Below, in pieces: positions 3,471 to 21,271 of a stretch of DNA of 50,369 nt (position 1 is its first letter; every line of letters starts with the position of its first letter). A model generated the notes under the pieces. It searched no databases. It was given only the letters and a program-made list of their open reading frames with translations, and was not told the DNA's origin. The DNA comes from Ginglymostoma cirratum (Eukaryota): NCBI GenBank assembly GCA_024137785.1, contig JAHRHZ010000166.1, positions 1,009,367 through 1,059,735 on the forward strand. Reading direction: 5' to 3'. A program made the translations under genes and the position numbers.

Positions 3471-3919
3471 AGAAAATTATAGCAGAGGATGATTTTATGG
3501 GTGGCACATGAGCTCAATGTTGATTCCTCATTTGGAGGTCTGTGACGTTATTTCCAATTTCTCATCAAAATATCATCTTTAATCCGTTAACCACTTGCGA
3601 TTTTTCCATCATCAACATCAGTGTGATCTTCCTGTATTAGCTAGCAGAATCAAACATTTTGCTCTGGACATGGTGTCAAATGTGGACCAGGCAAGGCAAC
3701 GAAGGCCGTTGTCCTTCTCAAAAGGGGCTTCAATGAACCAGGTGGATTCTTACATCAATATGCATTAATTACACAGTCATTACATTGCAACCTGTGATGA
3801 TGGGATTAGATCTCATGCCCTCAGACAATTAGCCTCGAATCCTGGATCACTAGTTCTGTGATGTTATCACGATATCACTACTATTTCCATATTTAATTAA
3901 ATTTTAATTCAATTCAGGA

Positions 3920-3925
3920 TTTATT
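3920..3925 (-). promoter_or_regulatory. Candidate polyadenylation signal (AATAAA) of the VJ-C1 gene
   Basis: TTTATT on + strand; first AATAAA I found downstream of the predicted stop. The region is AT-rich, so a chance match is possible. Confidence 0.45.
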
Positions 3926-4193
3926 TAAGAATAAAAAAATGAAGAAACATGATACAAAAGATTAAATTTAAATTCATGAATTCTGACTGTGTGTCTATTC
4001 TTCTGGTTTTCTACATTCACATTTCAGACTAACGAGTATCAAGCTACGTCAGCACAAAATAACATTGATGTATATTTGCTTGAGATATCGCTTAATATTG
4101 TCCCTTACTGTTTGCTGAATGAAAAATTAAAACAGCAGTGTGAATGAACTTCCGTATCTTGCTTTGTTCGATGACTCAGCGTTTCATTTCCCA

Positions 4194-4232
4194 TCAGAGT
4201 TCTGCTGTAAATGCAAGGTGAGCATAAAGAGT
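4194..4232 (-). CDS. Exon 6: terminal exon [12 protein letters not shown] with TxYxxL (ITSM/ITIM-like) motif
   Basis: Strong acceptor attttctcccttag|, phase 0 matching exon 5, TGA at 4196-4194, AATAAA about 270 nt downstream. Confidence 0.7.
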   Translation of the reverse strand, partial: TLYAHLAFTAEL

Positions 4233-7200
4233 CTAAGGGAGAAAATATATGATATCAATAACCAATGAAAAATAGGAAATATCACTTAATTTCACCCCTC
4301 GTCTGGATCCGTCGACACATTAATTAATGGGGCCCGTGTTGAAGTTATAATATCAGTGCCTCTGGGCCTGAAAATCTGTTTTCAGGCCCCATATACACCA
4401 GATATGTGTCTGAACTCATTGTTTTAAATAACCAATAAGAAATTCACTAATTCCTCTGAACCAAATCGTTGAGTGACCGTGCTATGGAGCACAGAAATAA
4501 GGCCTTTCTGCCCATCAGTTTTATGCAAGTAAAAAATAAGCACTTCCAATTATTATAGCTCCATTTACCAAACTTTACCTCCAGGACTTATATACCTTTT
4601 AACAACAAGTGCACATCTAAACACTTCTCAGAATTTGCGAGGATTTCTATCTCCTCCACACTTACAGGCAACGGACTTGAGATTATCACCATACTCTAGG
4701 TGGAAAAGGTAAAGTCCTCAACCCTCCTCGAAACCACCTGCCTCTTATCTGAAATCTATGCCGCTCGTCATTTCTTCCTCCATGAAGGGAAGAAAAAAGT
4801 ATATTCCTGTCCACACTGTTTATGTCCCTTGTAACACTACATATTTTAATCATGCCCCTCCTTAAAAAAACTGTTTAAAGGAAAATAACCCCATCCTACC
4901 AAATCTGTCATCATAATCGAAGTGAAAGTTTTACTTCTGAACATGAAATATGAGTAAAATGCTTCAAATTCAATTTCCATCATCCTCAAACAACATATTT
5001 GAAAGGGTTCATATAAAATATCCGTAAACACAATGCTATGGAATTGAAAGCTAAACTTTCATCATTTAATGTAATGCCCAACTACAAATGTCTGTCACTT
5101 TCTCTTTGTAACAGATCAAAGATTATAAACATCCTAATCACAATTAACGCTTCTATTTTCCAGCGTTACACACAGGTACATTATTCAGAGCGATGTCAAT
5201 TTCCTCAAAGTTACTGATGTTGAGAATCCATAAAAATGTTCTCATATCTAGTCAGTTTGGCCAAAAATTTACACAACGTTGCTTTGGGTCATTCATCGTG
5301 GTTTTCTTTTAGACCCCTTATCATCAACAACAATCTGCCTTAAATAAAAACCAAAGGAACTTCGGATGCTGCAAATCAGAAACATGAACACAAGTTGCTG
5401 TAATAGCTCAGCAGATCTGGCAGAAAATGTGAAGAGCAATCAATGTTAGCATTTTGGGTTTGGTGAACCTTTCTCACAAATGGTGGTAGCAGGGAACATT
5501 GCGGTTTACATGCTGCAGGTAGGGTGCGGGGATCAGGTAAGGAGTCAATGATAGGTGGGAATAGAGCCCAAAGAGAGACAAAAGCATGTGGACAGACAAA
5601 GGCATAATAACGATCTGGCTACGAGGGTGAATTGCTGTTAATGGGTAACAATAGGTTCTGTGGAATGACAGAGCATGTGATAACAAGGCGCGGTATTTGG
5701 ACAAGGGAGTCAGAACATTGGAGAGTTCAGGCCCTAAAATTATTGAACTCGATCTTGTTTCTGGAGGGCTGCATTCCCCCAAAAGAAATTGAGATGCTAT
5801 TCTTCCAGCTTGCACCAAGGTTCTCGGGAACACTGTAGCAGGCCTGAGACAGGGATGTTAGAAGGAACAGGGTGGCGTGTTAAAGCAGACGTCAACTGGG
5901 AGGAAGTTCAGGGTCATTTTTGCAGGCAGGATGTAAATGTTTGGTGAAGCGGTCACGCACCCTCCGCTGCGTTTCCCCAATATAGAAGAGAGCACATTGT
6001 GAGCAGTAAATGTGGTAGACTGAGATAAAAGGTACTGCAGATGCTGGAGAATCCGAAGATAACAAAGTGTGGGGCTGGATGAACACAGCAGGCCAAGCAG
6101 CATCATAGGAGCAGGAAAACTTGACGTTTGGGGTCTAGACCCTTCATCAGAAATGGGGGAGGGGAAGAGGGTTCTGAAATAAATAGGGAGATGGGGGAGC
6201 CGGATAGAAGATGGATAGAGGAGAGGATAGGTGGAGGGGAGGCAGACAAGTCAAAGAGGCGGAGAGGGAGCCAGTAAAGGTGAGTGTAGGTGGGGGGTAG
6301 GGAGGAGATAGGTCAGTCCAGAGAGGACGGACGGGTCAAGGGGGCGGGATGATGTTAGTAGATCGGGGATGGGGGTGGGACTTGAGGTGGGAGGAAGGGA
6401 TAGGTGAGAGGAAGGACAGGTTAGGGAGGCGGGGTCAATTGGGCTGGTTTTGGGATGCGGTTGGGGGAGGGGAGATTTTGAAGCTTGTGAAATCCACATT
6501 GATACCATTGGGCTGCAGGGTTCCCAGGCTGAATATGATTTGCTGTTCCTGCAGCCTTCGGGTGGCATCACTGTGGCATTGCAGGAGGCCCAGGATGGAC
6601 ATGTCATCTGAGGAATGGGAGGGGGAGTTGAAATGGTTCGCGACTGGGAGGTGCAGTTGTTTGTTGCGAACTGAGCGCAGGTGTTCTGCAAAGCGGTCCC
6701 CAAGCCTCCGCTTGGTTTCCCCAATGTAGGGGAGGCCACAACGGGTACAGCGGATGCAGTATACCACATTGGCAGATGTGCAGGTGAACATCTGCTTGAT
6801 GTTAAAAGTCTTCTTGGGGCCTGGGATGTGGGTGAGGGAGGAGGTGTAGGGGCAGGTGTAGCACTTCCTGCGGTTGCAGGGAAAAGTACCGGGTGTGGTG
6901 GGACTGGAGGGGAGTGTGGAGCGGACAAGGGAGTCACGGAGAGAGTGGTCCCTCCGGAAAGCAGACAAGGGTGGGGAGGCAAAAATGTCTTTGGTGGTGG
7001 GGTGGGATTGCAGTTGGCGGAAGTGTCGGAGGATCATGCGTTGGATCCGAAGGTTGGTGGGGTGGTCCGTAGACTAGATTGTGTGAAGTGCAGGTGAAGT
7101 TTCTTCACTACCAGCAGTTCTGATGAAGGGTCACCGGACTCGAGATATTAGCTTTTATTTCTCTTCACTGACGCTGCCAAGACCTTCTGAACTTTTCAAG

Positions 7201-10200
7201 AAACTTTTGTTTTTGTTTCTGTCTTAAATTCTTACCCGAAATCTAACAATAATGACAATCTCTCTGCACTCACCTCCTTTTCTTTGTCACGATGTCTCGA
7301 ATCTGAGAAATTATATTTCTTGGCTCTATCAGCTAATACAAAGGGAAACATAAACATTTGCAGTTTCCACAATGAAATTTTGTTGATTATCGTATAAACA
7401 ACCACAGCAAAATAAAATCCAACAGCAATGTGATTAATTTTGACTAAAAACACAGGGACATCACGTCTTACCTGCGTTTTGGTTCCTGCAGCTCCATCTA
7501 ACAACTACAGTGGAAACTGCAAGGAGGAAAATCATCAGAATGGAACTTCCATAAAGCAAGAAAGGGCAAATCTGACCCCCTGGTTCTGAAAAAGTAGAAA
7601 TGTTACCATTAAAATTTTCATCACCCGAGATATCACAGTAATGCAGAAAGTTTAGGGAGAGGCATGAGCATTATTTCGAAACAATGATGGATTAGAACTT
7701 AACGTCTCACTGGAGGATTCCTCCTTAAGGTTCTTAAGACAAATTATGAAATGTTTTCTGCAACAATTGCAGTTGCCGCAAGACTTTAATTATCCAATTG
7801 AATGGTTTAGCAAAACATGATACTATCCACTGGACGTGTTTTAAACTGTCAAGAAATGTCATTAATTTTCCATCATTTAAGTTTACCAATAATCAAAACT
7901 CTCTTTTCAAACTTGGTTTAAAAACATTGAGCTCCAAAGCGTGAATGTCGAAAGTTTGTATGACTATTCAAGAGTTAATTACTTCTCTGTTTGAGAAGTT
8001 CTCAAAGGTCGAAACACCTTTACAATGCAGGTTTAAGGTAATCAGACACAGGCCATAGTTTAAATCAATGGAAGAAACAGTGATTTCAATGTCTGAGTTC
8101 ACAAATTAATAAATACATTTATGTCATTTTAGGTAGGTTGGACTAGCAATCAGTGACTTCCAGTTGGAAAACTTTAGAATTGCATAGAGTAGAAGCTACT
8201 GAGCACATCAGGAATGCACGGCTTAACTTAGAAGTTGGCTACAGGAAGAGAGTTCAGATTAAAATGTTAAATGGATGAAAAAAAGTAAAAGACAGATTTC
8301 AGTTAAGGAAAAACATACTTTATGAGAATACTGCTTCCGAGCGAATAATGTCAGCAGGAAACTGTGTCAAAAACAATGGTGTCAAACATTGCATGAAGGT
8401 CTGGAATACAGACAATGTTTAGAGACAGGGAATTGACAGACTCAGTTAGAAATGTTAGCAAACGTTATGCAAATAGTCCTTAATTAAACGAATCACATTT
8501 CGTCAGCCTTCCTGCACCTATGATGCTTACTGGCCTGCTGTGTTCATCAAGCTCTACACTTTATTATCTCGTATTCTCCAGCATCTGCAGTTCCTATTAT
8601 CTCTGAGGCTTTTGAAAATATTGGATTTTCCTGCCATTAATCAGAATCTGTCATGTTAGGTATCGAATGCATTTCCTATGTTTATGCTGTTAGAAGTACC
8701 TATATCATTTAGTGCTGCTAGCAGTACTCTTGGCTGAAGCTATTGAAATGCCACTGCAAAACGTGAGTACAGCTTATTTATTACCATAGATAGTGCATGA
8801 GGCTGACAAAAGGAGTAGGTCAGCATCAAAGTATTCGAAAGAGCAATGAGCATAGGAAGTGTTGAGAAGAGAAGAGTAGATAAAGAATACTCGGTGTCTG
8901 TAGAATTCACACAGAAGATAGAACATCGAACATAGAACATCACAGCACAGTACAGGCCATTTGGCCCTCGATGTTGCGCCGACCTGTGAAACCAATCTGA
9001 AGTCCATCGAAACTACACTATTCCATTATTATCCATATGTTTATCCAACGACCATTTAAATGCTCTTAAAGTTGGCGAATCTACAACTGCTGCAGGCAAA
9101 GCATTCCATGCCCGTACTACTCTCTGAGTAAAGAATCTTCCTCTGACATCTGTCCTATATCTATCACCCCTCAATTTAAAGCTATGTCCCCTCGTGCTAA
9201 ATGTCACCATCCGAGGAAATAGGTGTATGGCAGGGAGATTTACCAGGATGGTGGCTGGAGTGGAGGGCAGATTTGATGAGGAAACGTCAAGGGAGCTAGG
9301 GCTTTTGTCATTGGAGTGCAGAAGGATGAGAATTGAGTTAATCGAGGTGTACAAGATGATGAGAGGCATAGACAGAGCGGAGAGCCGGAGTTTTTTTTCC
9401 CCCAGGGTGGAAACGAGTATTATGAGGGGGCACAATTTTACTGTGATAGGAGGAAAGTGTAGGGGAGATGTTGGAGATAAGTTCTTTACACAGCGAGTGG
9501 TGGGTGCGTGGACTACGCTGCTGGTGGAGGAGTGGAATTAGATACAAGTGGAGTTAGGAATATTTAAACAACTCTTGGATATGCACATGGATGATGGGAA
9601 AATGTAGGGTTTGCAGGGGAGTTCGATCTTAAAATAGGATAATAGGTCGCACAACATAGTGGGAAAAGGGCCTGTACTGTGCTGTACAATTCTATGTTCT
9701 ATCTATGTTCTTTTGAGCTAAATCAGTGTTGCTTCTATTCACGCAGGGGATGCAGTAAAGGCACACACTAGTGATAACTATGAAATAATGAAATGAAATA
9801 ATTAAAATGCAGTTAGGAAATGGATAGAGGAGGAACAGAAGGATATAACTTGATTGGTTTTGGTGTGCTTCATTACAAATTTAATTGCAGAACAACTATC
9901 AAAATAACTGAGAGAATGTTAAATGAGACCACATAGTGTCTTGAAAAATAAGAAGTATAAAAAGGTGATAATAATTATCACCACATTATATTTGCAATTG
10001 TGCAGATAAAACCATGCTAAAAAAGAAGATACAATTGTTAGTGGATGTTAATTATTACGGTGAAAACAAATGTTTATTCAGGGATGTTAGAAGAAAGAAC
10101 TTTTGAATTTGTGAGAAATCAAGTACCCATCCACCTAACGACTTGCAACTGCATTAGAATGTGGATGGTTGGTAGTTTAACAAAAATGTTAGGAACATCG

Positions 10201-13200
10201 GTATCAGGAGCTGAATTCCGTGGGTGTCCTCAAAATCATTAACGTAGATAAGTCCCCAAGGTCAGATAATATCTATCCCAGGGTGCTGAAGAAGGCAAGA
10301 GAGGAGTTTGCCGAAGCCTTGACAGAGATCTTTGTAGCCCTTTTATCCATAAGCAATGCTAGAGAGGAACTTTGAATAGCTTGGGTTAATCCTTTGCTGA
10401 AGAAGGGACACAAGTATAATCCAGGAAAACATTGTCTGACAAGCCTTATAACATTGGAAGGAGAATTATTAAGGAAGATTGTTAGAGAGAGGGATTGATG
10501 TCAATTGGAGAAAAAAGGGAATTTGTTTGGGAAAGGCAGGATGGTGTTAGGCAGTCGTGCTGACAACACAGTATGGAGCTGGAGCAACACAGCAGGACAG
10601 GCAGCATCATAGGAGCAATAAAGTTGACGTTTAGGGTCGTGACCCTTCTTCAGAAATGGGGAGGTTGGAGGGAGCTTGGAAATAAATAAAGAGGAGGGGT
10701 GGGGCTGGAGAACCTAGGTGTGATGGTGAAAGGTGAGTGCAGGGAGGGAGTGTTGGAGATTGGTATGTGGGATAGGTAGGGCAGATTGGTGGAGTGTCCA
10801 TCTTCTCCCCCACCCAGGGAGATCAGAACACGGGAAAGGGGTATTTGGAAGGGTATGTGCACTCAGCACACGAGTCAAGACTTGGGAGTGTGAGCGACCC
10901 ATATCTGAATCTCCCTCTCTGATTCTCTATTCGCTTCCCGATTCTGTGCTCCTCTACGATTCGCTCTGTGTTTAACTTCTCTCCCACCAACTGCTGATTC
11001 TCTCCCCATCTATTTCTTTCTCCCTCTCTGATTCTCTCTTGTGTTTCCAATTTGGACCCCTCATATCCTGATTCTCTGCCGCTGAACTCCATTTTAAAAG
11101 TGCACTTCAATGCACAATTGGGTTTCTGCTCATGGAAATTTCTCCCTATGACATCGCACGAAAATGCTTCACCTTGACATAGTGTCTGGAACCCGCCGCC
11201 TTTGTGTTTTTGGTTCAGCACGCATCCGTAGCTGTGGGTGTCAACAAACATAGACTTAAATCTTAAAGACTTATGATCATTGTCATAAAAATGTACGGCA
11301 GCAGACATTTGCTACTCGCCTGGCTTCATTCTCTCAAAGATAGTAGGAACTGCAGATGCTGGAGAATCTGAGGTAACAAGGTGGCAAGCTGGATGGACAC
11401 AGCAGGCCAAGCAGCATCATAGGAGCAGGTAAGCTGACGTTTCGGGCCTAGACCCTTCTTCAAAAATTTTCTGAAGGGTTTACGCCTGAAACGTCAGCTT
11501 TCCTGCTGTTATGATGCTGCTTGGCCTGCTGTGTTCATCCAGCTCGCCACCTTGTTATCTCTCTTCTTTCTCTCAAACCAGCTTCTACTTGATCTCCTGT
11601 CTTGTGAGAATTTTTGTGTGCTCGCTGAAAAAAAAATCTCTCTTCAACATATATGAAGAACTTAGCTTGCTTTAAGAATTTCTCCATCCCTGTCAACATC
11701 TCATCATTTCCAATCATTTTAGCTCTATACCTCTGAGATTTTGTCTTAATATCTGTATGTGCATCGCTCCCTCACTTCTTGGATTTCTACACACCCCAAA
11801 CAAGGTGATTGTCACTTTTGCTTTAAGTTTTATGCATACGACCTCTTTTGAGGAAGTTTCCAAGGTATCACCCATCCTTTTTGGAGTTATTTATTCCTTG
11901 ATCAAAATAGCGAGATTACCTTTTCTTGTGTAGATCTCTCTTCACCCCATCTCGCCTGAATTGTCTATAATCTGGCATATTATGCCAATTTGCATATGCC
12001 TCCTTCAAACAAGTTCTGTCATAGAATTAACATCACATTCCCTTGCATTAATGAACAAACTCTATTCATATGATGGACACATGAAACTATTGTATCAAAT
12101 TAATGGCACTGAACATTGCCACGCTCCCTTCATTTTTTTTTAACTCGACTACATCCACACTGCCTTCTAGATTGACTTTGCTCATCTTGCAAGTTTGTTT
12201 TTACATTAGCCATTCCAGTACAGGCAATACATATCCCACTTAATAAAATTAGTTGAAGTCTCAACCAACCACAAGAGCAACCACCTTGCCACCTCACAAG
12301 TATGCGATTGGTTCCATTCAGCACATTTTGCTGTTGTTTCAGATTTCCAGCAAAGAACAGAGAACAATGAAAATTACAGCATACCAACAGATCCTTTGGC
12401 CCTCCAAACCTGCATAGACATGCTGCCCATCACAACTAAAACCCCTACCCTTCCGGGGACCGTACCCCTCTATTCCCATCCTATTCATTTATTTGTCAAA
12501 ACGCCCTTTAAACGTCAGCATTGCATCTATTTCCACTACTTCCCCTGGCAGCGAGTTCCAGGTACCCACCACCCTCGGTACAAACAAAAACTTACCAGGT
12601 ACATCACCTTTAAACCTTGTCCCTCGCACTTTAAACTTTTGGCCCCTGGTAACTGACTCTTGCACCCTGGGAAAAAAGCTTCTGACTGTCCACTCTCTCC
12701 ATGCCCTTCATAATCTTGTAAACCTCTATCAGGTCTCCCCTCAACCTCCGTCATTGCAGTGACAACAACCATTTTTCTCCATATTCTCCTCATAGTTAAT
12801 GCTCTCCCTACCGGGGAACATCCAGACAAATGTTTTCTGTACCCTCTCCAAGGCTACCACATCCTTATGTTGCCTTGTTAATGACGTTCTCCACCTGCAT
12901 TGCCACTTTCAGTTACCTGTGTACCTGTACACCCAAATCCCTCTGCAGATCAGTGCTCTTACGTGTTCTGCCATTTGTGTATATTTTCTGTCTGGATTAG
13001 ATCTTCCAAAGTACATCGCCTCATATTTTTCCAGATTAAACTCCATTTTCCATCTCTCTGCCCAAGTCACCTACCGATCTATATCCAGCTGTAACCTTTG
13101 AAGGTCCTCAACACTATCTGCTACCAACCTTTGTTCCATCAGCAAACTTACTAATCAGACCAGTAACATTTTCCTCCAAATCATTTATATATATTACAAA

Positions 13201-16200
13201 TAGCAAAGGCCCCAACACTGATCCCTGAGGAATGCCACTAGTCACAGCCGTCCATTCAAAAACATACATTTCCACTGCTACCCTCTGTCTTCTATGACCA
13301 AGCCAGTATTTTGTATCCATCTTGAAAGCTCACCTCTGACCCCATGCGACTTTACCTTTTGCATCAACTTGCCATGAGGGACTTTGTCAAAGGTCTTTGC
13401 TGAAGTCCATGTAGACAGCATCTACTGCCCCACCCTCATTGATAATCTTCATACCTTCTCAAAAAATTCAACCAAGTTAGCAAGACATGATCGCCCCCTC
13501 ACAAAACCATGACGCCTCTCGCTAATATGCCCACTTATTTCCAAGTTGGAGCAAATACTTTCTGGAAGAATCTGCACCAATAATTTCACTACCACTGACA
13601 TAAGGCTCACCGGACTGTAATGAGCTGGATTATCCTTGCAACCTTCTGTACCATAACCTATACTCCAATCCTTTGAGACCTCCCCTGCAGCCAGTCAGGA
13701 TACAAAGATTTCCCTCAAGGCCCCTGAAATTGCCACTCTGGCCTCTTTCAGTATTTTGGGATATATTCCATCAGGCCCTGGGAACTTGTCTACATCAATG
13801 TTTTTTTCAAGACGCCCAACACCTCCTCCCTTTTGATCTCAACATGACCCCAACCTATCTACCCACGAATCCCCAAACTTATCATACACAAAGTCCTTCT
13901 CTTTGGTGAATACTGACACAAAGTACTCATTCAATACATCGCCCATTTTTCTGGCTCCACACATAAATTCCCTTCCTTGTCCTTGAGTCTGCCATGCCTC
14001 TTCATGGCTAACCCCTGCTCTTTGTATATGTATATAAAGCCCTGGAGTTTTCCTTAACCTTGTTGGCCAATGACTTTTCATCACCCCTTTTAGTCTTTCT
14101 CACTCCTTACTTAAGTTTATCCTGACTTTCCTTGTGTTCTACCCTGGCTTTGGGAGTTCCCAGCCTCCTAGCCTTGTGAAATGCATCCTTTTTCTTTTTG
14201 ATTAGACTCACAATATCTCTCGTTATCCAAGGTTACCTAAACGTTCCATAATTAACCTTCATCCTTACAGAAATGTGCTGTTCTCGAGTTCCTCGCAAAT
14301 TATTCTTGAAAGCCTCCCACATACTGGATTTTGATTTTCCCTCAAACGTCTGCCACCAATCTACATTCTTCAGTTCCTGTCTAATATTGTTGCAATTAGC
14401 CTTCCCCTAATTTAGCAGTTTCACCTCACAACTGTATCTATCTTTATCCATCAGTACCTTAAAGCTTAGTGAATTGTGATCACTCTTCCCAAGCTGCTCC
14501 CCTACTGAAACGTCGACCATCTGGCCGGGCTCATTCCCCTGTATTAGTTCCAGTACAGCTCCTTTCTTCATAGGGCTACCTACAGAAGGAGCTGTGGGTA
14601 TGGGGTTGTTGGGAAGATCACTGGGAATTACCCACAAACAAATTTCTGGAAGCAGTGACTGCACTGATGCAGATCTTCCCAAGGTCAGCCAACCAGCATC
14701 ACCACTCTGCTGCCCTCTTCCAGGTGGGTTGTCAGTTCTTTGTTAATTTTCGTCGAGTTAGTATATTCAAATTATCCCGGATGAGTGGTTAGCTTAATTG
14801 CCTAGACCGCTGAATTTCCATATTGGCTGAGGTAACCATGAATGTCCCATCTTTTCAAATTTCCATCGACTAAGTTATGATGACTGCCATGTTTACTGAC
14901 CACCAGTAATCTCTCTCTCTATTAAGAGAAAAGCTCTATTTTCCTCTAGGGCTGTGGTAACTTTACAATACCTAGTATTCTTAGTGCTGCATTAGATGGA
15001 TGTAAAATATAAGCCACCCTAGCATTTTACACACATTTGAAAGTCATAATAGAATAGTTAAGATTGAATTTAACATCACACTTGAGATTTTATGTGCAGG
15101 AAACAAAACTCATGGCGCCTACATGGATAGTAGAAGACATTGTATTAACAGGTGACGTGTTCTGATATGGGAAAAGCCAATCCTGTTCTTTGTTCATATT
15201 GTACCCTGACTATTGTGTGGAGGATATAGTCTCCTTCATTGGGAAATGATATACTTGCCATAAAGACATGGAGTGATACTGGAGTGAGTAGTAATCTCAC
15301 ACATGGAGAGATTATTCAGACTGAACCTGTATTGACTAAGTTGAGAAGAATGACAGTGCTCTGAATGAAACATAAAGAAGTCTAAGACCCCTAGGCAGAC
15401 TTGATGAAGTAAGGGTGCTTCTCTCGTTCGTTTAAATCTACAACAGGACTCAAAGTCCATGATTAGGGTATAGGATATTTACGGCTGAGATGAGGAAACA
15501 TTTCTTCTTTAAGTTGGCCAACATGTTCAGTTCTCTACCATAGATGACTGTGAGAGCTGGATCAGTATAATGTTTCATAAAGAGGTTTTCTTTTAAATAT
15601 TCAAAGCATCAAGTTGTACAGAGAGAATGTGGGAAAATAATGAAGAGACAAATGAATATCCCTCGATAATCTGAGTTGTAGAACAGAATCACGGGAGCCA
15701 GAAACATTAGGATCTTAAACTGGATATCAGGCCAGTACCGACAAATGATCGAGTGTTAAGTGAAAAGATAACACCATCACATTGGCTATCCATGGGCCTA
15801 AAGAAAAAGCTAATTGCCTGATCGTTACAGTGAGTAAAATTGACAAGTCTAAAGAGAAAAGAAAAAGATGATCAGACTTCAATTACACTACCTGAACTGT
15901 ATTTGTCCTACATGATTTTTACCATCTTATGGGACAATGTCAACAATAATCTATAAATAATTGGCATGATTGAAACATTCCAGAAATCCTGTAGAACCAG
16001 GTGGATCTGTAGACAGGGAAGTGAAAGGCAGTGATAAGGAATGGGGACAATAAAAGATGTCAGAATTAAGATAGAAATTGGGTAATTAGATATCCATGTG
16101 ACAAACGATTACATAAAGATACTGTCTTTTATTGCATTCCTCAGATATTATTTTTGGTTAAGAGTAGTGTGCACTGTCACTGCATTTCCTTGATTAAATG

Positions 16201-19200
16201 ATCAAAACCTGCACTTGAGGCTCCTTTGTTAGATTATTCGAAACAACCTCAACAAGTGCGATGATCACGTCGGGTTTTTATGTTAATAATGAATAAAGAT
16301 GCACTCGTGAATGTGGAAAATATTTTACTTGATGACAATGGGTATGAAATGTTTTGCATATAAAAACAATTGTTAGACTGGGATTTTTATTTTCTTTCCA
16401 GGATTGAAAACTTTTTTGTGATTTTGGCAGAATCCTATAGATTATATTTTTTTCTATGCCTTTGTAGGATGTGGGCAATGCTGGCTTGCCAGCATTTCTT
16501 TCCCAAACCTAGTTGCCCTTGAGAAGGTGGTGGTGAACTGCCTTCTTGAACTGCTGCAGCCTACCTGTTATAGACTGACCTACAATGCCATTAGAGGGTT
16601 TTCCAGGATTGTGATCCAGCAACAGTGTAGGACCAGTGATATATTTCCAAGTAAGGATTTTGAGTGGCTTGGAGGGGAACTTGAAGATGGTAGTGTTCCC
16701 CTATGTTTTGTGCCCTGTGCTGCTCGATGGAAGTGACCCTGAGGTTGGAATGTGTTATCTGACGATGTTTGGTAAATTTATGCAGTGTATATTGTAGATA
16801 GTGCACACTACTGTTACTGAGCTTTGGATGGTAGAATGAGTGGATACTTGTGGATGTAATGCCAACCCAGCGGGATGTTTTGTTCTGGAAGCTGTCAACC
16901 TTCTTGCGTGTTGCTGGGGCTGCACTCATCCAGGCAAGTGAGGAGTATTCCATCACAGTCCTGATTTGTGCCTCGTAGATAGCGGACAGGCTTTGAGGAA
17001 TAAGGAGGTGAGTTACTCGCCACAGTATTTCTAGCTTCTGACCTTGTCTTGTAGTCCCTGTGGTGAGTCCAGCTGAGTTTCTGGGCAATGATAACCCCCC
17101 CCCCCAGGATGTTGATAGTGGGGAATTCAGTGACGGTAAAACCATTGAATATCAAGGGTGGTGGTTAGATTGTTTCTAATTGGTGATGGTCATACACTGG
17201 CATCTTTGTGATGTGGGTGTCACTTGCCACTTGTCAGCCAAAGGCTGCATATTGTCCACATCTTGTTGCATTTGAACACAGACATCTTCAGTATCCGAGG
17301 AGTCACGAATGGTGCTGAACATTGTGCAATCATCAGTGAACATCCTCACTTCTGACCTTATGATAGAGAGAAGTTCATTGATGAAGCAGCGGAAGATGGT
17401 TGGGCCGAGGGCACTGCACTGGGGAACTCCTACCTAGATGTCCTGGAGATGAGATGATTGATCTCCAACAACCACAACTATCTTTCCATTGTGTCAGTTA
17501 TTACTCCAATACTATTTTGCCCACTGATGCCCATTGTTTCCAGTTTGGCTAGGGTTCCTTGATGCCACACTCAAGTCGATCGCAGCCTTGATGCCAAGGG
17601 CTGTCACTCTCACCTCACCTGTGGAATTTAGTTCTTTTGCCCATGTTTGAACCAAGGCTGTAATAAGGTCAGGAGCTGAGTAGCCCTGTTGGAACCCAAA
17701 CTGGGCGTCACTGAGCAGGTTATTGCTGAGCACGTCCAGGTTGATAGTACTGTTGATGACATCTTCCATCACTTTACTGTTGATTGAGACTAGACTGGTG
17801 GGGCAGCAATTAGCTGGACTGGATTTGCCCTGCTTTTTGTGTACAAGACATACTTGAGAAATTTTCCACATTGCCGGGTAGATACCAGTGTTGTAACTGT
17901 ATTGGTACAGCTTGGCTAGGGGAGGGGCAAGTTCTGGAGCACAATTAGTCAATACTATTGCCAGAATGTTGCCAGGACCAGTAGCGTGAATTGAATAGGA
18001 ACTAATGAAGAAAGGCCTTTCCACATCTGAATCAGCCCAAACCCAGACCTTCAATGCATTTACGTCAGTTTCAAAGGGGACCATTAGGGATCTTCGCAGA
18101 AAATGCCTTTACGCAGATGTTGCTTAACAAGCCCAAGTGTCTAGAACGAACATTAATTACGATAACGAGCACTGATGCACCAACAAGTAATGCAAACGGA
18201 TAAAAAGGAAAGTAGTTGAAAAGTACTTGTTGATCGTGGAGATAATGACAACATATTTTTTGGAAATACAACAGAACAGAAACACCAGAATTTACCTCTT
18301 CATTGAAATCCTTTGTTTCAGATTTATAGATACATTGTAATATTCAAAGCTACATAGGTGAAGGGTGAACAAATGTTGTGAGCATAAATTCTAATTTAAT
18401 ATTTGAAAGTACAAACGTGCCTCCAACTGTGCACGTATTTCCTAGATAGATAAATGGATAATCCTATTCAGAAATAAAGATAAATGCTACAACAAGGCGA
18501 GAAAGTAAAGGAGGTGGTAGTTGATCAGAAACATTGAAAGAAAACGATTTATGGGAAATAAGCAGCTGATACAAACACTGAGTGTCCCATCGGAATTAAA
18601 TATAAAATATACTAACAATATGAATTGTTACCTGTCCGGTATGAATAGTTTTCACTGATAAGATTTGTTGTTGAGTTGATTTGAATTGAGCAAGTGCAAA
18701 CAAACCAGTTGCTATGCTTGTTTCCTTCGACTCCGATTTGACTGCTGACACTGTATACACCGTCACGGATTATTGTTTCTGTATCAGTCCATTCCTCCTT
18801 AGCCCGTGACGAACAATTCCAGCGAATGGTAAGGTAATTAGTGGCTGCACTGCTCACGAAGCACATCAATGGGATATTTTGCAGTGAAAGAATTTCATCT
18901 GATGGTGAGTGTAAGAGTGTTATTGTCGGGGAACCTGCAGAGTAGGTAAGACGTATTTAAAATCTAACATAACTTTGTGGGTATTTATTGTGAACTGATA
19001 AGCAACGACATTCATTCTTACCGGCAACGAATAATTCAGATCCTTTTCCGAATTTGAAGGATGATCCACTAAATTTCTTAGCAGCGCAGTAGTACATGCC
19101 TGAGTCATTTCTTTGCGTATCATCAATAACAAGAGTATAAATAGTCCCTTCTTCGTTAACCTCTCCTGAAAATTTTCCGTTTGGATGCATATGTTTTATA

Positions 19201-19821
19201 ACGGTGAAAACGAGTTGTATGTGTTTTTGCTGCTGGTGTTTATGCCAGAGAACAGCTCCAGCTGCGAGCCATCCCGTGTGGCAATGCATCTTGCATTTAC
19301 TTCCAATTGAGGCAGTTTGAACTGTTGGAGTCTGCGGGTACACTGCCTGAGAGACAACAACTGAAGAACAGCATGAATTACATTAATTTCTTGCGTAGTA
19401 GGAAATTAAGAAAAAATATAGATCAAAACCTTCCAGACAATGAAAACTGTCTCCTGTGTAGTTCATCTTTTATTCTTGGAAAAGTGGTGGTCCCCTGTTC
19501 ACACTTCAAGATCCCACACATAAAATGAAGACAAAAGAATCAGCTAATCTGTTGTACTGAAAGATGTTTTTGTCTTTGGGCGGAGTAGTGAATTCCCCTG
19601 CTCGATTAACGTGCCTGTTATATTAGAACATTGGCCTTTTGTAATAGACCAATAACAACTCAAATTCTTAAAGCAACATTAATATTAAAGACTGCCAGTT
19701 TGAACTTGCCTCATGAATCATCTTTTAAGTGATTTTACACTCATAATTAAGCCATAAATTTATGAAAGATAACCTTACCTGGCAACAAATGAAAAAGCGC
19801 CAGCAGAGTCAAGAGGATCAT
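4194..19821 (-). CDS. Spliced gene, join(19821-19779,19360-19022,18934-18632,7585-7472,7302-7274,4232-4194): non-rearranging VJ-C1 Ig-superfamily type I membrane receptor, 288 aa (PRARP/VJC1-like architecture)
   Basis: Exon lengths 43+339+303+114+29+39=867 nt. All introns are GT-AG, with phases 1,1,1,1,0, and there is no internal stop. Protein: [26 protein letters not shown]...[14 protein letters not shown]...[36 protein letters not shown]...LMCFVSS...IRWN...YSVSSQI...FVCTC...[64 protein letters not shown]. The family name is inferred from domain order; additional small exons in the long introns cannot be excluded. Confidence 0.8.
4480..4900 (-). mobile_element. Old CR1 3' end
   Basis: Degenerate similarity to the CR1 3' ends at 8919 and 12360. 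Confidence 0.5.
5345..7225 (-). mobile_element. Older Penelope-like element (GIY-YIG remnant) with inverted terminus, interrupted by a younger PLE
   Basis: [18 protein letters not shown] in ORF 5892..6086. The body resumes at 7076 after the nested insert; 7111-7225 is an inverted copy of the 5345-5475 terminus. Confidence 0.75.
6022..7068 (-). mobile_element. Young 5'-truncated Penelope-like element, open GIY-YIG endonuclease frame (6435..7037)
   Basis: [10 protein letters not shown] Cys linker and [29 protein letters not shown]...[17 protein letters not shown]. Flanked by 7-bp direct repeat GTAGACT (6015-6021, 7069-7075). Confidence 0.92.
7274..7302 (-). CDS. Exon 5: short cytoplasmic exon ([10 protein letters not shown])
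   Basis: Acceptor aatttctcag|, donor GAG|GTGAGT, phase 1 to 0, 169 nt downstream of the TM exon. Confidence 0.7.
7472..7585 (-). CDS. Exon 4: connecting peptide plus transmembrane helix
   Basis: Strong acceptor ttctactttttcag|, donor G|GTAAGA, phase 1 to 1. Encodes [38 protein letters not shown]: about 21 uncharged residues followed by a basic stop-transfer. Confidence 0.85.
8500..8606 (+). mobile_element. Solo PLE terminal fragment
   Basis: CGTCAGCCTTCCTGCACC...CCAGCATCTGCAGTTCCTATTATCTC matches the terminus of the other PLE copies. Confidence 0.75.
8919..9222 (-). mobile_element. CR1 3' end
   Basis: [34 protein letters not shown] and GTTCTAT-type tail repeats. Confidence 0.85.
9223..9710 (+). 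mobile_element. CR1 3' end (opposite orientation)
   Basis: [26 protein letters not shown]...[11 protein letters not shown]; TTCTATG tail repeats. Confidence 0.85.
9800..10560 (+). mobile_element. Old CR1 ORF2 fragment
   Basis: Degenerate DKSP...IYPRVLK...PLLKKG...NPG region at 10240-10500. Confidence 0.55.
10565..10790 (-). mobile_element. PLE terminal fragment
   Basis: Homologous to the PLE terminus at 6060-6300; hammerhead core degenerate (GAAA>TAAA). Confidence 0.7.
11338..11563. mobile_element. Fold-back (head-to-head) pair of PLE termini
   Basis: About 90-bp inverted arms (11369-11458 vs 11473-11561) meeting at the hammerhead core. Confidence 0.85.
12360..14585 (-). mobile_element. 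CR1 LINE, 5'-truncated ORF2, frameshifted
   Basis: GNEPGQ...SDHNSL; [20 protein letters not shown]...SKFADGTK; 3' end near 12360. Confidence 0.9.
15270..15710 (+). mobile_element. Old CR1 3' end
   Basis: Degenerate TTTACGGCTGAGATGAGGAAACATTTCTTC (F..EMRK.FF) region. Confidence 0.5.
16450..17990 (-). mobile_element. CR1/L2-group LINE (second family), RT and 3' end
   Basis: [12 protein letters not shown]...[18 protein letters not shown]...[19 protein letters not shown]; [20 protein letters not shown]. Confidence 0.85.
18632..18934 (-). CDS. Exon 3: C1-set Ig constant domain
   Basis: Follows an 87-nt intron; acceptor ctctgcag|, donor G|GTAACA. Motifs [31 protein letters not shown]; sequons NCS, NST, NYS (ORF 18612..18869). 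Confidence 0.92.
19022..19360 (-). CDS. Exon 2: V-set Ig domain with fused J segment
   Basis: Acceptor ttcttcag|, donor G|GTAAGA. Contains B-strand Cys (MHC), C-strand Trp (VLWH), YTLVI, DSGMYYC and the J motif FGKGSELFV in one exon (ORF 18957..19343). Confidence 0.95.
19779..19821 (-). CDS. Exon 1: signal peptide ([14 protein letters not shown])
   Basis: acaATG start, 14 hydrophobic codons plus 1 nt, then donor G|GTAAGG. Typical short phase-1 Ig/TCR-type leader exon. Confidence 0.85.
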
Positions 19822-19899
19822 TGTCTGCGATGAACTTATTACTTCAAATTTCACACTGAGGTTTTGTTTTTCCGCTTTATTGTTTGCACGATCCAGAAC

Positions 19900-20010
19900 A
19901 GAACATTTATGTAAGATAGCGTTTAAGAAATTGCTACGTTGTCAGGAAAAGAAGACATGTGGAAAATGTAACGTGATGGAAATGATATTTGTGGGTTTCC
20001 TGTTTACACA
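19900..20010 (-). promoter_or_regulatory. Candidate proximal promoter of the VJ-C1 gene
   Basis: TATA-like CATAAAT about 85 nt upstream of the ATG. Clustered TGTGGG (RUNX-like, 19990), TTCCTG (ETS, 19997) and TGTTTAC (forkhead, 20001). Motif matches only. Confidence 0.3.
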
Positions 20011-21271
20011 TTAACTGCGTGCAAAGAAATGACCATCGAAAGGGCATTTGGTTAAAATTTGGTTTGATAATGCAGTAAAAGGAAATGTGCCGTCCCCGAT
20101 TAAAAAAAGGATGTTACAAATTAATAACATATCAATGGTGTTGTTATTTTGAGTGCTGATCTTTATATTAGCCTTCATCTTAACCAAAAACTTTAAAAGA
20201 ATACAAACTACACGAGTTCAATTGAAACTGATTTATATGTTCATGCACTGTTCCAGCAATATGTGAATTTCTCACACCCGTTTGGTTTTTGAAAGAGCTC
20301 TTTTTCTTTTTCTGTGTTAGCTCTCGCTGAGGAGGCCACCATGAACCTTACTGTACATCATATCATAACGTAATGGCCCAAAGTAGGGATATGAATTCCA
20401 TCTTCAAGATGTTTTCAGTGCCTGCACTGGAGTAATACTGCACTACTGGAGTCGTACTCCTATATCTGAGAGACTAAGATGAGATGCCAGCACGTCCTAT
20501 CAGAAAAGAGATAGCGTATCTGTCCAGTTAAGTTCACTAGCCACCCTCTCGCGCATAGATCCACAAGTAGACAAGGGCAGAGACAGTGCATGCAGGAAAG
20601 TAATCTCTCCACCCCAAATTATCCTAAGAAAACAGCAGTAATTTTTTAAATAAAAAAAATTAAGGTAAGTTATCCGATCTATTTCAAGATACTCACTTGG
20701 AATGGCTGCATAACTGACGTCCTCCACTGTGTGCAGTGGTCACCCCATGAAGGAACCTCTGCCAGCTTCAAAATTGAGCAAAATTCTCTACAGATTTCAG
20801 TGCAGATCAAATTCCAGGCACAATGTATAAACAAATCAAAGAGGAAACTTTTTTTCTGTATTAAGTCAGAATTGTATTGAAAGTTTCCCGACGTGGATTC
20901 AACTGATATCAAATCAAATTGATCCGAACAGTAAGTACACCAAATGCAGTTCCTGGGCTACCTCGACGGGAAATTGGAACAGTTGCATTGACGAAATTTC
21001 ATGCTCATCTGAATCCCCACTCAAACTAAAAAAAAAACCAGAATTGTGACAACAAACTTTCAGAGTTAGTGATATAAATAACAAGTTGTGAATGCACTGA
21101 ACTGAATTGCATACTTATACAGAAATCCTTAATATAAAGATTATAAGTAGAATTGATCCCTTTTCCCATTAATGGTCCTTCTGCCATTTACTTCAATCAT
21201 GGTTGGTAGATTGTCCACAATTACACCTTCCTATTTTTATTTTCCACATAACCAATGATTAAAAATCTGAA

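What the first reader, a model, noticed from the sequence alone, without database searches (positions are those of the whole stretch)
4194..7585. Signalling module unlike TCR/BCR: uncharged TM, juxtamembrane Cys, tail with TxYxxL
Seen: the TM ([21 protein letters not shown]) has no Lys/Arg/Asp, is preceded by a Cys (QICP), and is followed by a tail of about 31 aa ending [13 protein letters not shown]. Established: TCR chains use charged TM residues to recruit CD3 and have minimal tails; TxYxx(V/I) is the ITSM and (S/I/V/L)xYxx(I/V/L) the ITIM consensus. Inference: a possibly disulfide-linked dimer that signals on its own through SHP-1/2 or SAP-type adaptors, i.e. an inhibitory or switch receptor with an antigen-receptor-like ectodomain.
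Basis: partly seen in the sequence, partly recalled or inferred. Interest (0 to 1): 0.7.

Follow-up and report, generated by a model that had tools for sequence, protein, structure and literature searches.

The report
Shark unshuffled TCR-shaped brake receptor
This shark gene is spliced into a message for a cell-surface protein shaped like one T-cell-receptor chain but fixed in the genome; its membrane-side cysteine and single tail tyrosine recur in relatives from sharks to birds and likely make it a two-chain immune brake, probably of a family already described in chickens.

Summary
4194-7585 is the last three exons of an intact six-exon minus-strand gene: leader, germline-joined VJ, C1-like, Cys plus uncharged TM, two tail exons; 298 aa. 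RNA contigs (one study) join all six exons as modelled, so the last exon is real. One correction: the tail is 41 aa, not 31. The pre-TM Cys is present in 43 of 43 chosen full-length relatives (sharks, rays, sturgeon, lungfish, amphibians, reptiles, birds); 38 of 43 have exactly one tail Tyr motif. The gene sits in a 13-locus cluster with 8 open V exons, and none of the intact copies read has a mid-membrane charge. TLYAHL fits neither the strict ITIM nor the strict ITSM; the same TxYxxL form in human KIR2DL5 does not recruit SAP, so SHP-type inhibition is likelier than switching. Dimer formation, phosphorylation and phosphatase binding are inferred, not shown. The family is probably PRARP/VJC1 (primary papers not held; content recalled), for which a similar module was reported. 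Verdict: new member of a known kind; the expressed shark expansion was not found in ten paper searches.

The parts
19779..19821 (-). Exon 1, leader (ATG at 19821), phase-1 donor
   Evidence: sequence; joint to exon 2 in X3 record 10
19022..19360 (-). Exon 2, V-set domain with J-like FGKGS in the same exon; no RSS found in 18000-20500
   Evidence: Pfam V-set E 1.2e-11; RSS scan; RNA contigs
18632..18934 (-). Exon 3, C1-like domain
   Evidence: Pfam C1-set E 0.0047, below the curated cut-off; 29 of 43 relatives match C1-set; best PDB sequence hits are Ig constant domains
7472..7585 (-). Exon 4: short stalk with Cys235, uncharged 21-aa TM, start of tail with Cys261
   Evidence: joints in X2, X3, X4; Cys in 43 of 43 aligned relatives
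7274..7332 (-). Exon 5, 59 nt, charged tail spacer ending in Glu
   Evidence: joint 7332/7472 in three contigs and onward joint to 4232 in two
4194..4232 (-). Exon 6 coding part: TLYAHL motif and stop, after a phase-0 intron
   Evidence: same exon start in paralogues
3913..4193 (-). 3' untranslated region; AATAAA begins at 3925
   Evidence: X2 contig covers 3913-4232; hexamer scan; a contig end does not fix the RNA end

Best explanation
This is an intact, spliced gene for a 298-residue, non-rearranging VJ-C1 membrane protein that likely works as a disulfide-linked dimeric inhibitory receptor. Shown: gene structure, splicing, joined VJ, uncharged TM, conserved stalk Cys and single tail motif, multigene cluster under purifying selection. 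Inferred, step by step: (1) Cys235 at the outer end of the TM helix bonds to the same Cys of a second chain (itself, a cluster paralogue or the related B-type chain); (2) the V domain binds a fixed, unknown ligand, each paralogue a different one; (3) clustering lets a Src-family kinase phosphorylate the Tyr in E-T-L-Y-A-H-L; (4) because each chain has one motif, the dimer supplies the two phosphotyrosines for the tandem SH2 domains of SHP-2 or SHP-1, which damp activation signals. It does not use CD3-type adaptors.
For: Splicing of all six exons. Bamboo-shark orthologue XP_043550578 has the same layout, 224 of 300 columns identical, tail ETLYADLAF. Stalk Cys in 43 of 43 and the only invariant column outside the Ig domains; 9 of the 43 have four or fewer other ectodomain Cys in a complete V-C1, so it has no intrachain partner there. 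One Tyr motif in 38 of 43, none with two: 22 TxYxxL, 10 TxYxxV/I, 2 SxYxxL, 4 other. No charge in the TM core in 38 of 43 and in none of the intact cluster copies read here. Median dN/dS 0.33 among 8 open V exons. A PD-1 review writes the SHP-binding ITSM as TxYxxL (PMC5356790 passage). Recalled, not seen: chicken PRARP forms disulfide-linked homo- or heterodimers and carries an ITIM/ITSM-like motif.
Against: No binding, phosphorylation, cell-type or ligand data. The motif is not a canonical ITIM, and in KIR2DL5 the TxYxxL motif was not essential for inhibition. 5 of 43 relatives lack the motif and 5 of 43 have a charged residue in the TM window, four of them at its outer edge. The window protein has extra Cys at 37, 168 and 207, and 26 of 43 have Cys207, so an intrachain bond to Cys235 is not excluded here. 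The 43 rows were chosen by eye as complete models with a TM. RNA support is from one study, tissue unknown; a polyA run (X5, about 24% read) gave V-exon depth 0.25 and none on exon 6.
Confidence: 0.55

Rival explanations
1. Obligate two-chain receptor: this A-type chain pairs with the related B-type VJ-C1 chain, like TCR alpha and beta. A would bring the ITSM-like motif, and B either a canonical ITIM (a PD-1-like ITIM+ITSM pair split over two chains) or a TM Arg that recruits an activating adaptor. This overlaps with the best explanation but denies 'signals on its own'.
For: B-type proteins carry (I/S)xYxxL in ray and turtle models and a Cys near the TM; A and B have consecutive accessions in Mobula and share a contig length in zebra shark and lungfish. 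This genome has one B gene, with Cys and an Arg early in the TM exon. Earlier AI notes on other genomes report A/B pairs.
Against: Only one B locus was found against 8 open A-type V exons, on another contig; an N stretch follows its TM exon, so its tail is unknown. No co-expression data.
Confidence: 0.22
2. Switch receptor: the Thr at -2 lets SAP or EAT-2 bind, so the receptor co-activates or inhibits depending on adaptor level, as SLAM receptors do.
For: Thr at -2 in 34 of 43 aligned rows; 10 of 43 (tetrapod-type rows) have the strict TxYxxV/I form; consensus given as TxYxxV/I in PMC11599192.
Against: No shark or ray row has V/I at +3; the TxYxxL of KIR2DL5 does not recruit SAP. Presence of SAP in this genome was not tested.
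Confidence: 0.1
3. The Tyr is mainly a YxxL sorting signal for AP-2 uptake, making the protein a ligand-capturing or decoy receptor rather than a phosphatase recruiter.
For: YAHL fits the Yxx-hydrophobic pattern (recalled); single motif; two relatives' models skip the TM exon and would be soluble (P0016, P0019).
Against: Conserved Glu/Gln at -3, Thr at -2 and Ala at +1 are more than a sorting signal needs and resemble kinase and SH2 sites (recalled).
Confidence: 0.1
4. A germline-joined TCR or Ig chain, or a chance assembly of exons.
For: Best structural and sequence matches in the PDB are TCR and Ig chains, at 16-27% identity.
Against: Exons are joined in RNA; no charged TM residue; 41-aa tail; the family falls apart from the five IgL/TCR-like rows in the tree, 97/91; same layout in birds and turtles.
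Confidence: 0.03

Closest known systems
PRARP (Fu et al. 2019, PMID 30770416) and Xenopus VJC1 genes (Ohta et al. 2019, PMID 31492741); only titles seen in reference lists, content recalled
   Same: Non-rearranging joined VJ, V-C1 layout, a pair of related gene types, one ITIM/ITSM-like motif, dimer Cys, relatives in bony fish, amphibians, reptiles and birds; the four complete-looking bird hits listed first carry no C1-set match, in line with the recalled degenerate avian C1.
   Different: Here a 13-locus expansion in a shark; I recall no cartilaginous fish in the original species list. No chicken sequence was retrieved, so orthology is not shown. PMC10751288 names PRARP among VJ genes in the MHC, whereas none of 28 MHC class I matches lies on this contig.
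TCR alpha/beta/gamma/delta chains
   Same: Split leader, V-J-C1-stalk Cys-TM order; top Foldseek hits are TCR chains.
   Different: V and J in one exon without RSS; no TM Lys/Arg; 41-aa tail with its own Tyr motif; Cys abuts the TM.
UrIg / UrIg2 (PMC12227049, abstract and results passages read)
   Same: Shark non-rearranging VJ-C1 genes; UrIg2 has a TM and forms disulfide-linked dimers.
   Different: UrIg2 has nine or more C1 domains and lies with IgH/TCR alpha-delta; this gene has one C1, a Tyr tail, many paralogues and relatives in tetrapods.
PD-1 and KIR2DL5 tails (PMC5356790, PMC3443818 passages)
   Same: Tx-Y-xx-(I/L) motif in an uncharged-TM inhibitory receptor that recruits SHP-2.
   Different: Both have a canonical ITIM in front of that motif on the same chain; this protein has only the one motif.
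SIRP-alpha, NITR, NKp30 (features recalled; SIRP clusters scored 0.95 in the Atlas)
   Same: VJ-type membrane-distal domain in a germline receptor; SIRP also has C1 domains.
   Different: SIRP-alpha has V-C1-C1 and four Tyr; NITRs have a V-I ectodomain; NKp30 has one V and a TM Arg.

Membership tests
PRARP / VJC1 | V and J-like segment in one exon, no RSS | tested here: met
PRARP / VJC1 | Single C1 domain after V | tested here: met
   C1-set E 0.0047 (below cut-off) for the exon, 29 of 43 relatives match; Ig constant hits
PRARP / VJC1 | One ITIM/ITSM-like tail motif (feature recalled) | tested here: met
   38 of 43, none with two
PRARP / VJC1 | Disulfide-linked homo- or heterodimer (feature recalled) | not testable with these tools
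   Cys conserved, bond not observed
PRARP / VJC1 | Two related gene types | tested here: met
   A and B types; adjacency in other species inferred only from accessions and contig lengths
PRARP / VJC1 | Orthology to the chicken PRARP sequences | tested here: inconclusive
   Bird relatives found but no chicken or PRARP-named record; shark A and bony-vertebrate A clades are each supported, their union is left open
PRARP / VJC1 | MHC linkage, as stated in PMC10751288 | tested here: inconclusive
   0 of 28 MHC-I matches on C166 or C168; contigs are not chromosomes
TCR chain | Charged TM residues and minimal tail | tested here: not met
TCR chain | RAG-rearranged V and J with RSS | tested here: not met
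ITIM (strict) | (S/I/V/L)xYxx(I/V/L) | tested here: not met
   T at -2; 2 of 43 relatives meet it
ITSM (strict) | TxYxx(V/I) | tested here: not met
   L at +3; 10 of 43 relatives meet it; one review accepts TxYxxL
UrIg / UrIg2 | Three or more C1 domains | tested here: not met
   C1 exon joins directly to the TM exon in RNA
SIRP-alpha | V-C1-C1 with four tail tyrosines (recalled) | tested here: not met
   one C1, two tail Tyr of which one is conserved
NITR | V plus I-type domain and teleost synteny (recalled) | not tested
   no NITR sequence was compared; second domain looks C1-like

The most novel reading that the evidence does not exclude
Sharks keep a germline repertoire of TCR-shaped two-chain receptors in which many A chains supply ligand choice and an ITSM-like motif, while the B chain sets the sign: a canonical ITIM for braking or a TM Arg for activation. 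This would be a PD-1-like ITIM+ITSM pair split across a heterodimer, an NK-type self-recognition system, and a living model of how the pre-RAG antigen receptor signalled before CD3.
Probability: 0.2. Interest if true: 0.78.

Novelty: new member of a known kind. Interest (0 to 1): 0.5.

Why it matters
Unsplit VJ-C1 genes are the proposed raw material of antibodies and T-cell receptors (PMC12227049 introduction passage). This one is an expressed, full membrane receptor whose dimer Cys and tail Tyr recur across jawed vertebrates, so it offers a direct test of whether a TCR-shaped chain signalled by its own tail before CD3. The shark cluster also supplies candidates for the poorly known inhibitory receptors of shark lymphocytes or NK-like cells. 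Databases mislabel these proteins as lachesin-like, Ig-like or even PD-1. The surprise is limited, because a similar module was probably reported for chicken PRARP.

Tried and rejected
Homodimer prediction of the bamboo-shark orthologue, residues 19-262: no verdict (score 0.01, mark 0.32, alignment not used), so no evidence either way; the A/B pair was not modelled. Primary papers on PRARP, VJC1, UrIg and the Dornburg-Yoder review are not held. Ten paper searches found no description of this shark cluster; the library lacks most subscription journals, so this is weak. Two searches of the PMC10751288 supplement found none of the terms, including the control word 'bamboo', so that blank means little. 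Neighbour-gene hunt: 150 of 420 non-repeat ORFs from about 270 kb of C166 and C168 gave only retroelement domains and one weak clathrin-repeat hit; synteny unresolved. The look-up of sequencing runs listed no holder on record as RNA; X6 laid 3 reads, on a repeat only; X1 gave no exon piece in 7150-7700. An extra exon in the 11-kb intron was excluded by the direct C1-TM joint. An activating A-type paralogue with a mid-TM Arg or Lys was sought among 10 other TM exons and not found. One-mismatch hits of the tail pattern are mostly chance (71 hits against 51 for the reversed control). The Atlas gave only generic Ig names. No tail exon was identified for the 981-kb, 777-kb and 1089-kb loci.
Full report
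Observation. The finding covers the last three exons of a minus-strand gene. Upstream lie a 43-nt leader exon (19821-19779), a V exon (19360-19022) that ends in a J-like FGKGS stretch, and a C exon (18934-18632). With the TM exon (7585-7472), a 59-nt exon (7332-7274) and the last exon (4232-4194) they give an 897-nt frame, 298 aa, all introns GT-AG. The tail is 41 aa, not 31.

Splicing is shown. Contigs of runs X2 (1138 nt) and X3 (838 nt) consist of pieces 4232, 7274-7332, 7472-7585, 18632-18932 and 19020 onward in order; another X3 contig joins 19360 to 19779; X4 shows the 7332/7472 joint. These runs are of unrecorded kind and from one study; the joints identify them as RNA. A polyA run read to 24% gave only thin V-exon depth and a fourth run nothing, so expression is low or tissue-bound. 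An AATAAA at 3925 lies near the end of the X2 contig at 3913.

Domains. The V exon matches V-set (E 1.2e-11); the C exon matches C1-set weakly (E 0.0047, under the cut-off), and 29 of 43 relatives match C1-set. No RSS was found in 18000-20500. An AlphaFold model of the bamboo-shark orthologue (mean pLDDT 74.7) shows two Ig domains, one helix from residue 234 and a disordered tail; its best matches are TCR and Ig chains at low identity. The Cys therefore sits at the very start of the TM helix.

Conservation. The closest named protein is Chiloscyllium XP_043550578, mislabelled lachesin-like, 224 of 300 columns identical, with the same exon breaks and ETLYADLAF. Of 16 shark proteins aligned first, 14 have TxYxxL and all 14 with a TM exon have the Cys. 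A whole-library search reached rays, sawshark, sturgeon, bichir, lungfish, coelacanth, amphibians, lizards, turtles and birds. I aligned 43 A-type models chosen by eye for having a TM; models without TM or C1, B-type and multi-domain hits were left out. The stalk Cys is in 43 of 43 and is the only invariant column outside the Ig domains. 38 have one Tyr motif, none has two, 5 have none. 38 have no charged residue in the TM core; of the 5 others, four have it at the outer edge (that output was cut after the table used).

Cluster. The genome has 12 V loci on contig C166 between 635 and 1393 kb, plus an orphan TM-tail fragment at 70 kb (counts are lower bounds). Eight V exons are open, 45-81% identical, median dN/dS 0.33, with a fixed-length CDR3-like loop; four loci are broken. 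Ten other TM exons were read: all have a Cys at or near the outer end, and none of the intact ones has a charge in the core. So the module is a family trait and this cluster shows no activating A-type member.

A second chain type. A related B type has one locus here, on C168 among Ig light-chain clusters; its TM exon has a Cys and an early Arg, and an N stretch hides what follows. B models of rays and a turtle instead end in a canonical (I/S)xYxxL. In a tree of 58 ectodomains (5 rows skipped by my anchor; only 4 IgL-like and 1 TCR-like outgroup rows, labelled by my reading) shark/ray A (98/97), bony-vertebrate A (97/91) and B (91/82) are separate groups whose order is open, set apart from a further group and the IgL/TCR rows by 97/91.

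Mechanism. Most likely a covalent dimer that is phosphorylated on the single Tyr and recruits SHP-2 or SHP-1, the two chains giving the two phosphotyrosines (inference; 0.55). TLYAHL is a hybrid of ITIM and ITSM. A PD-1 review writes the ITSM as TxYxxL (PMC5356790, passages), a CD28-family paper as TxYxxV/I (PMC11599192, passages). The nearest tested case, KIR2DL5, does not recruit SAP through TxYxxL and does not need it for inhibition (PMC3443818, passages). That counts against the switch reading and also warns that the brake may be weak unless a partner adds a canonical ITIM, which is the heterodimer rival (0.22). Extra cysteines at 37, 168 and 207 leave an intrachain use of Cys235 possible in this protein.

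Relation to known systems. [quoted passage not shown] PMC12227049 (abstract, part of results, section 6, passages) describes UrIg2, a different multi-C1 gene, and does not use the word PRARP. Fu 2019, Ohta 2019, Flajnik 2023 and Dornburg-Yoder 2022 were seen only as titles; my account of PRARP is recalled, and their texts and supplements may already list shark members. By layout, taxonomic range and paired gene types this is probably the cartilaginous-fish branch of PRARP/VJC1 (about 0.7); direct orthology and synteny were not shown, and MHC class I is not on these contigs. Earlier AI notes on other genomes reach the same reading; they are leads, not independent support.

Verdict. New member of a known kind, interest 0.5.

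Noticed in passing
G000:C168 36.5-40.4 kb (L048): Single B-type VJ-C1 gene with a Cys and an Arg early in its TM exon, a candidate activating partner; tail hidden by an N stretch.
   Followed up: partly
G000:C168 3-88 kb (L050-L057): Three Ig light-chain clusters around the B gene: one with unjoined V, one broken, one with V and J joined in the germline at 86.3 kb. Isotype not established; my notebook's 'lambda-like' is only a first guess, the long CDR2 recalls sigma-2.
   Followed up: no
G000:C166 802-805 kb (L044): Paralogue without a C1 exon (leader, V, short exon, TM, tail with GLYAQL), matching an unnamed relative P0035.
   Followed up: partly
G000:C166 70-73.6 kb (L046): Orphan TM and tail exons with a stop in the TM exon, 560 kb from the main cluster; no V or C1 found in 68.5-108.5 kb.
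   Followed up: partly
window 19244 and 18734: RNA contigs differ from the window: His to Tyr in the V C-strand (X2, X3) and Gly to Arg in C1 (X2 only); probably alleles.
   Followed up: no
P0016, P0019: Basking-shark and bamboo-shark models skip the TM exon in frame and would be soluble; the same skip is possible here (114 nt, phase 1-1) but was not seen in RNA.
   Followed up: no
window 7472-7500: Cytoplasmic Cys261 just inside the membrane, present in many shark relatives; a possible palmitoylation site.
   Followed up: no
G000:C166 about 1,447-1,453 kb (L075): LTR-type retroelement with zinc knuckle, RT, RNase H and integrase matches.
   Followed up: no
P0072: A caecilian member of this family is annotated 'programmed cell death protein 1', probably a mislabel.
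   Followed up: no
window 5500-7100, 8200-9700, 10300-14000, 21000-50369: Introns and the upstream 30 kb look dominated by retroelement fragments (RT-like open stretches, very high read depth); no second gene was recognised.
   Followed up: no
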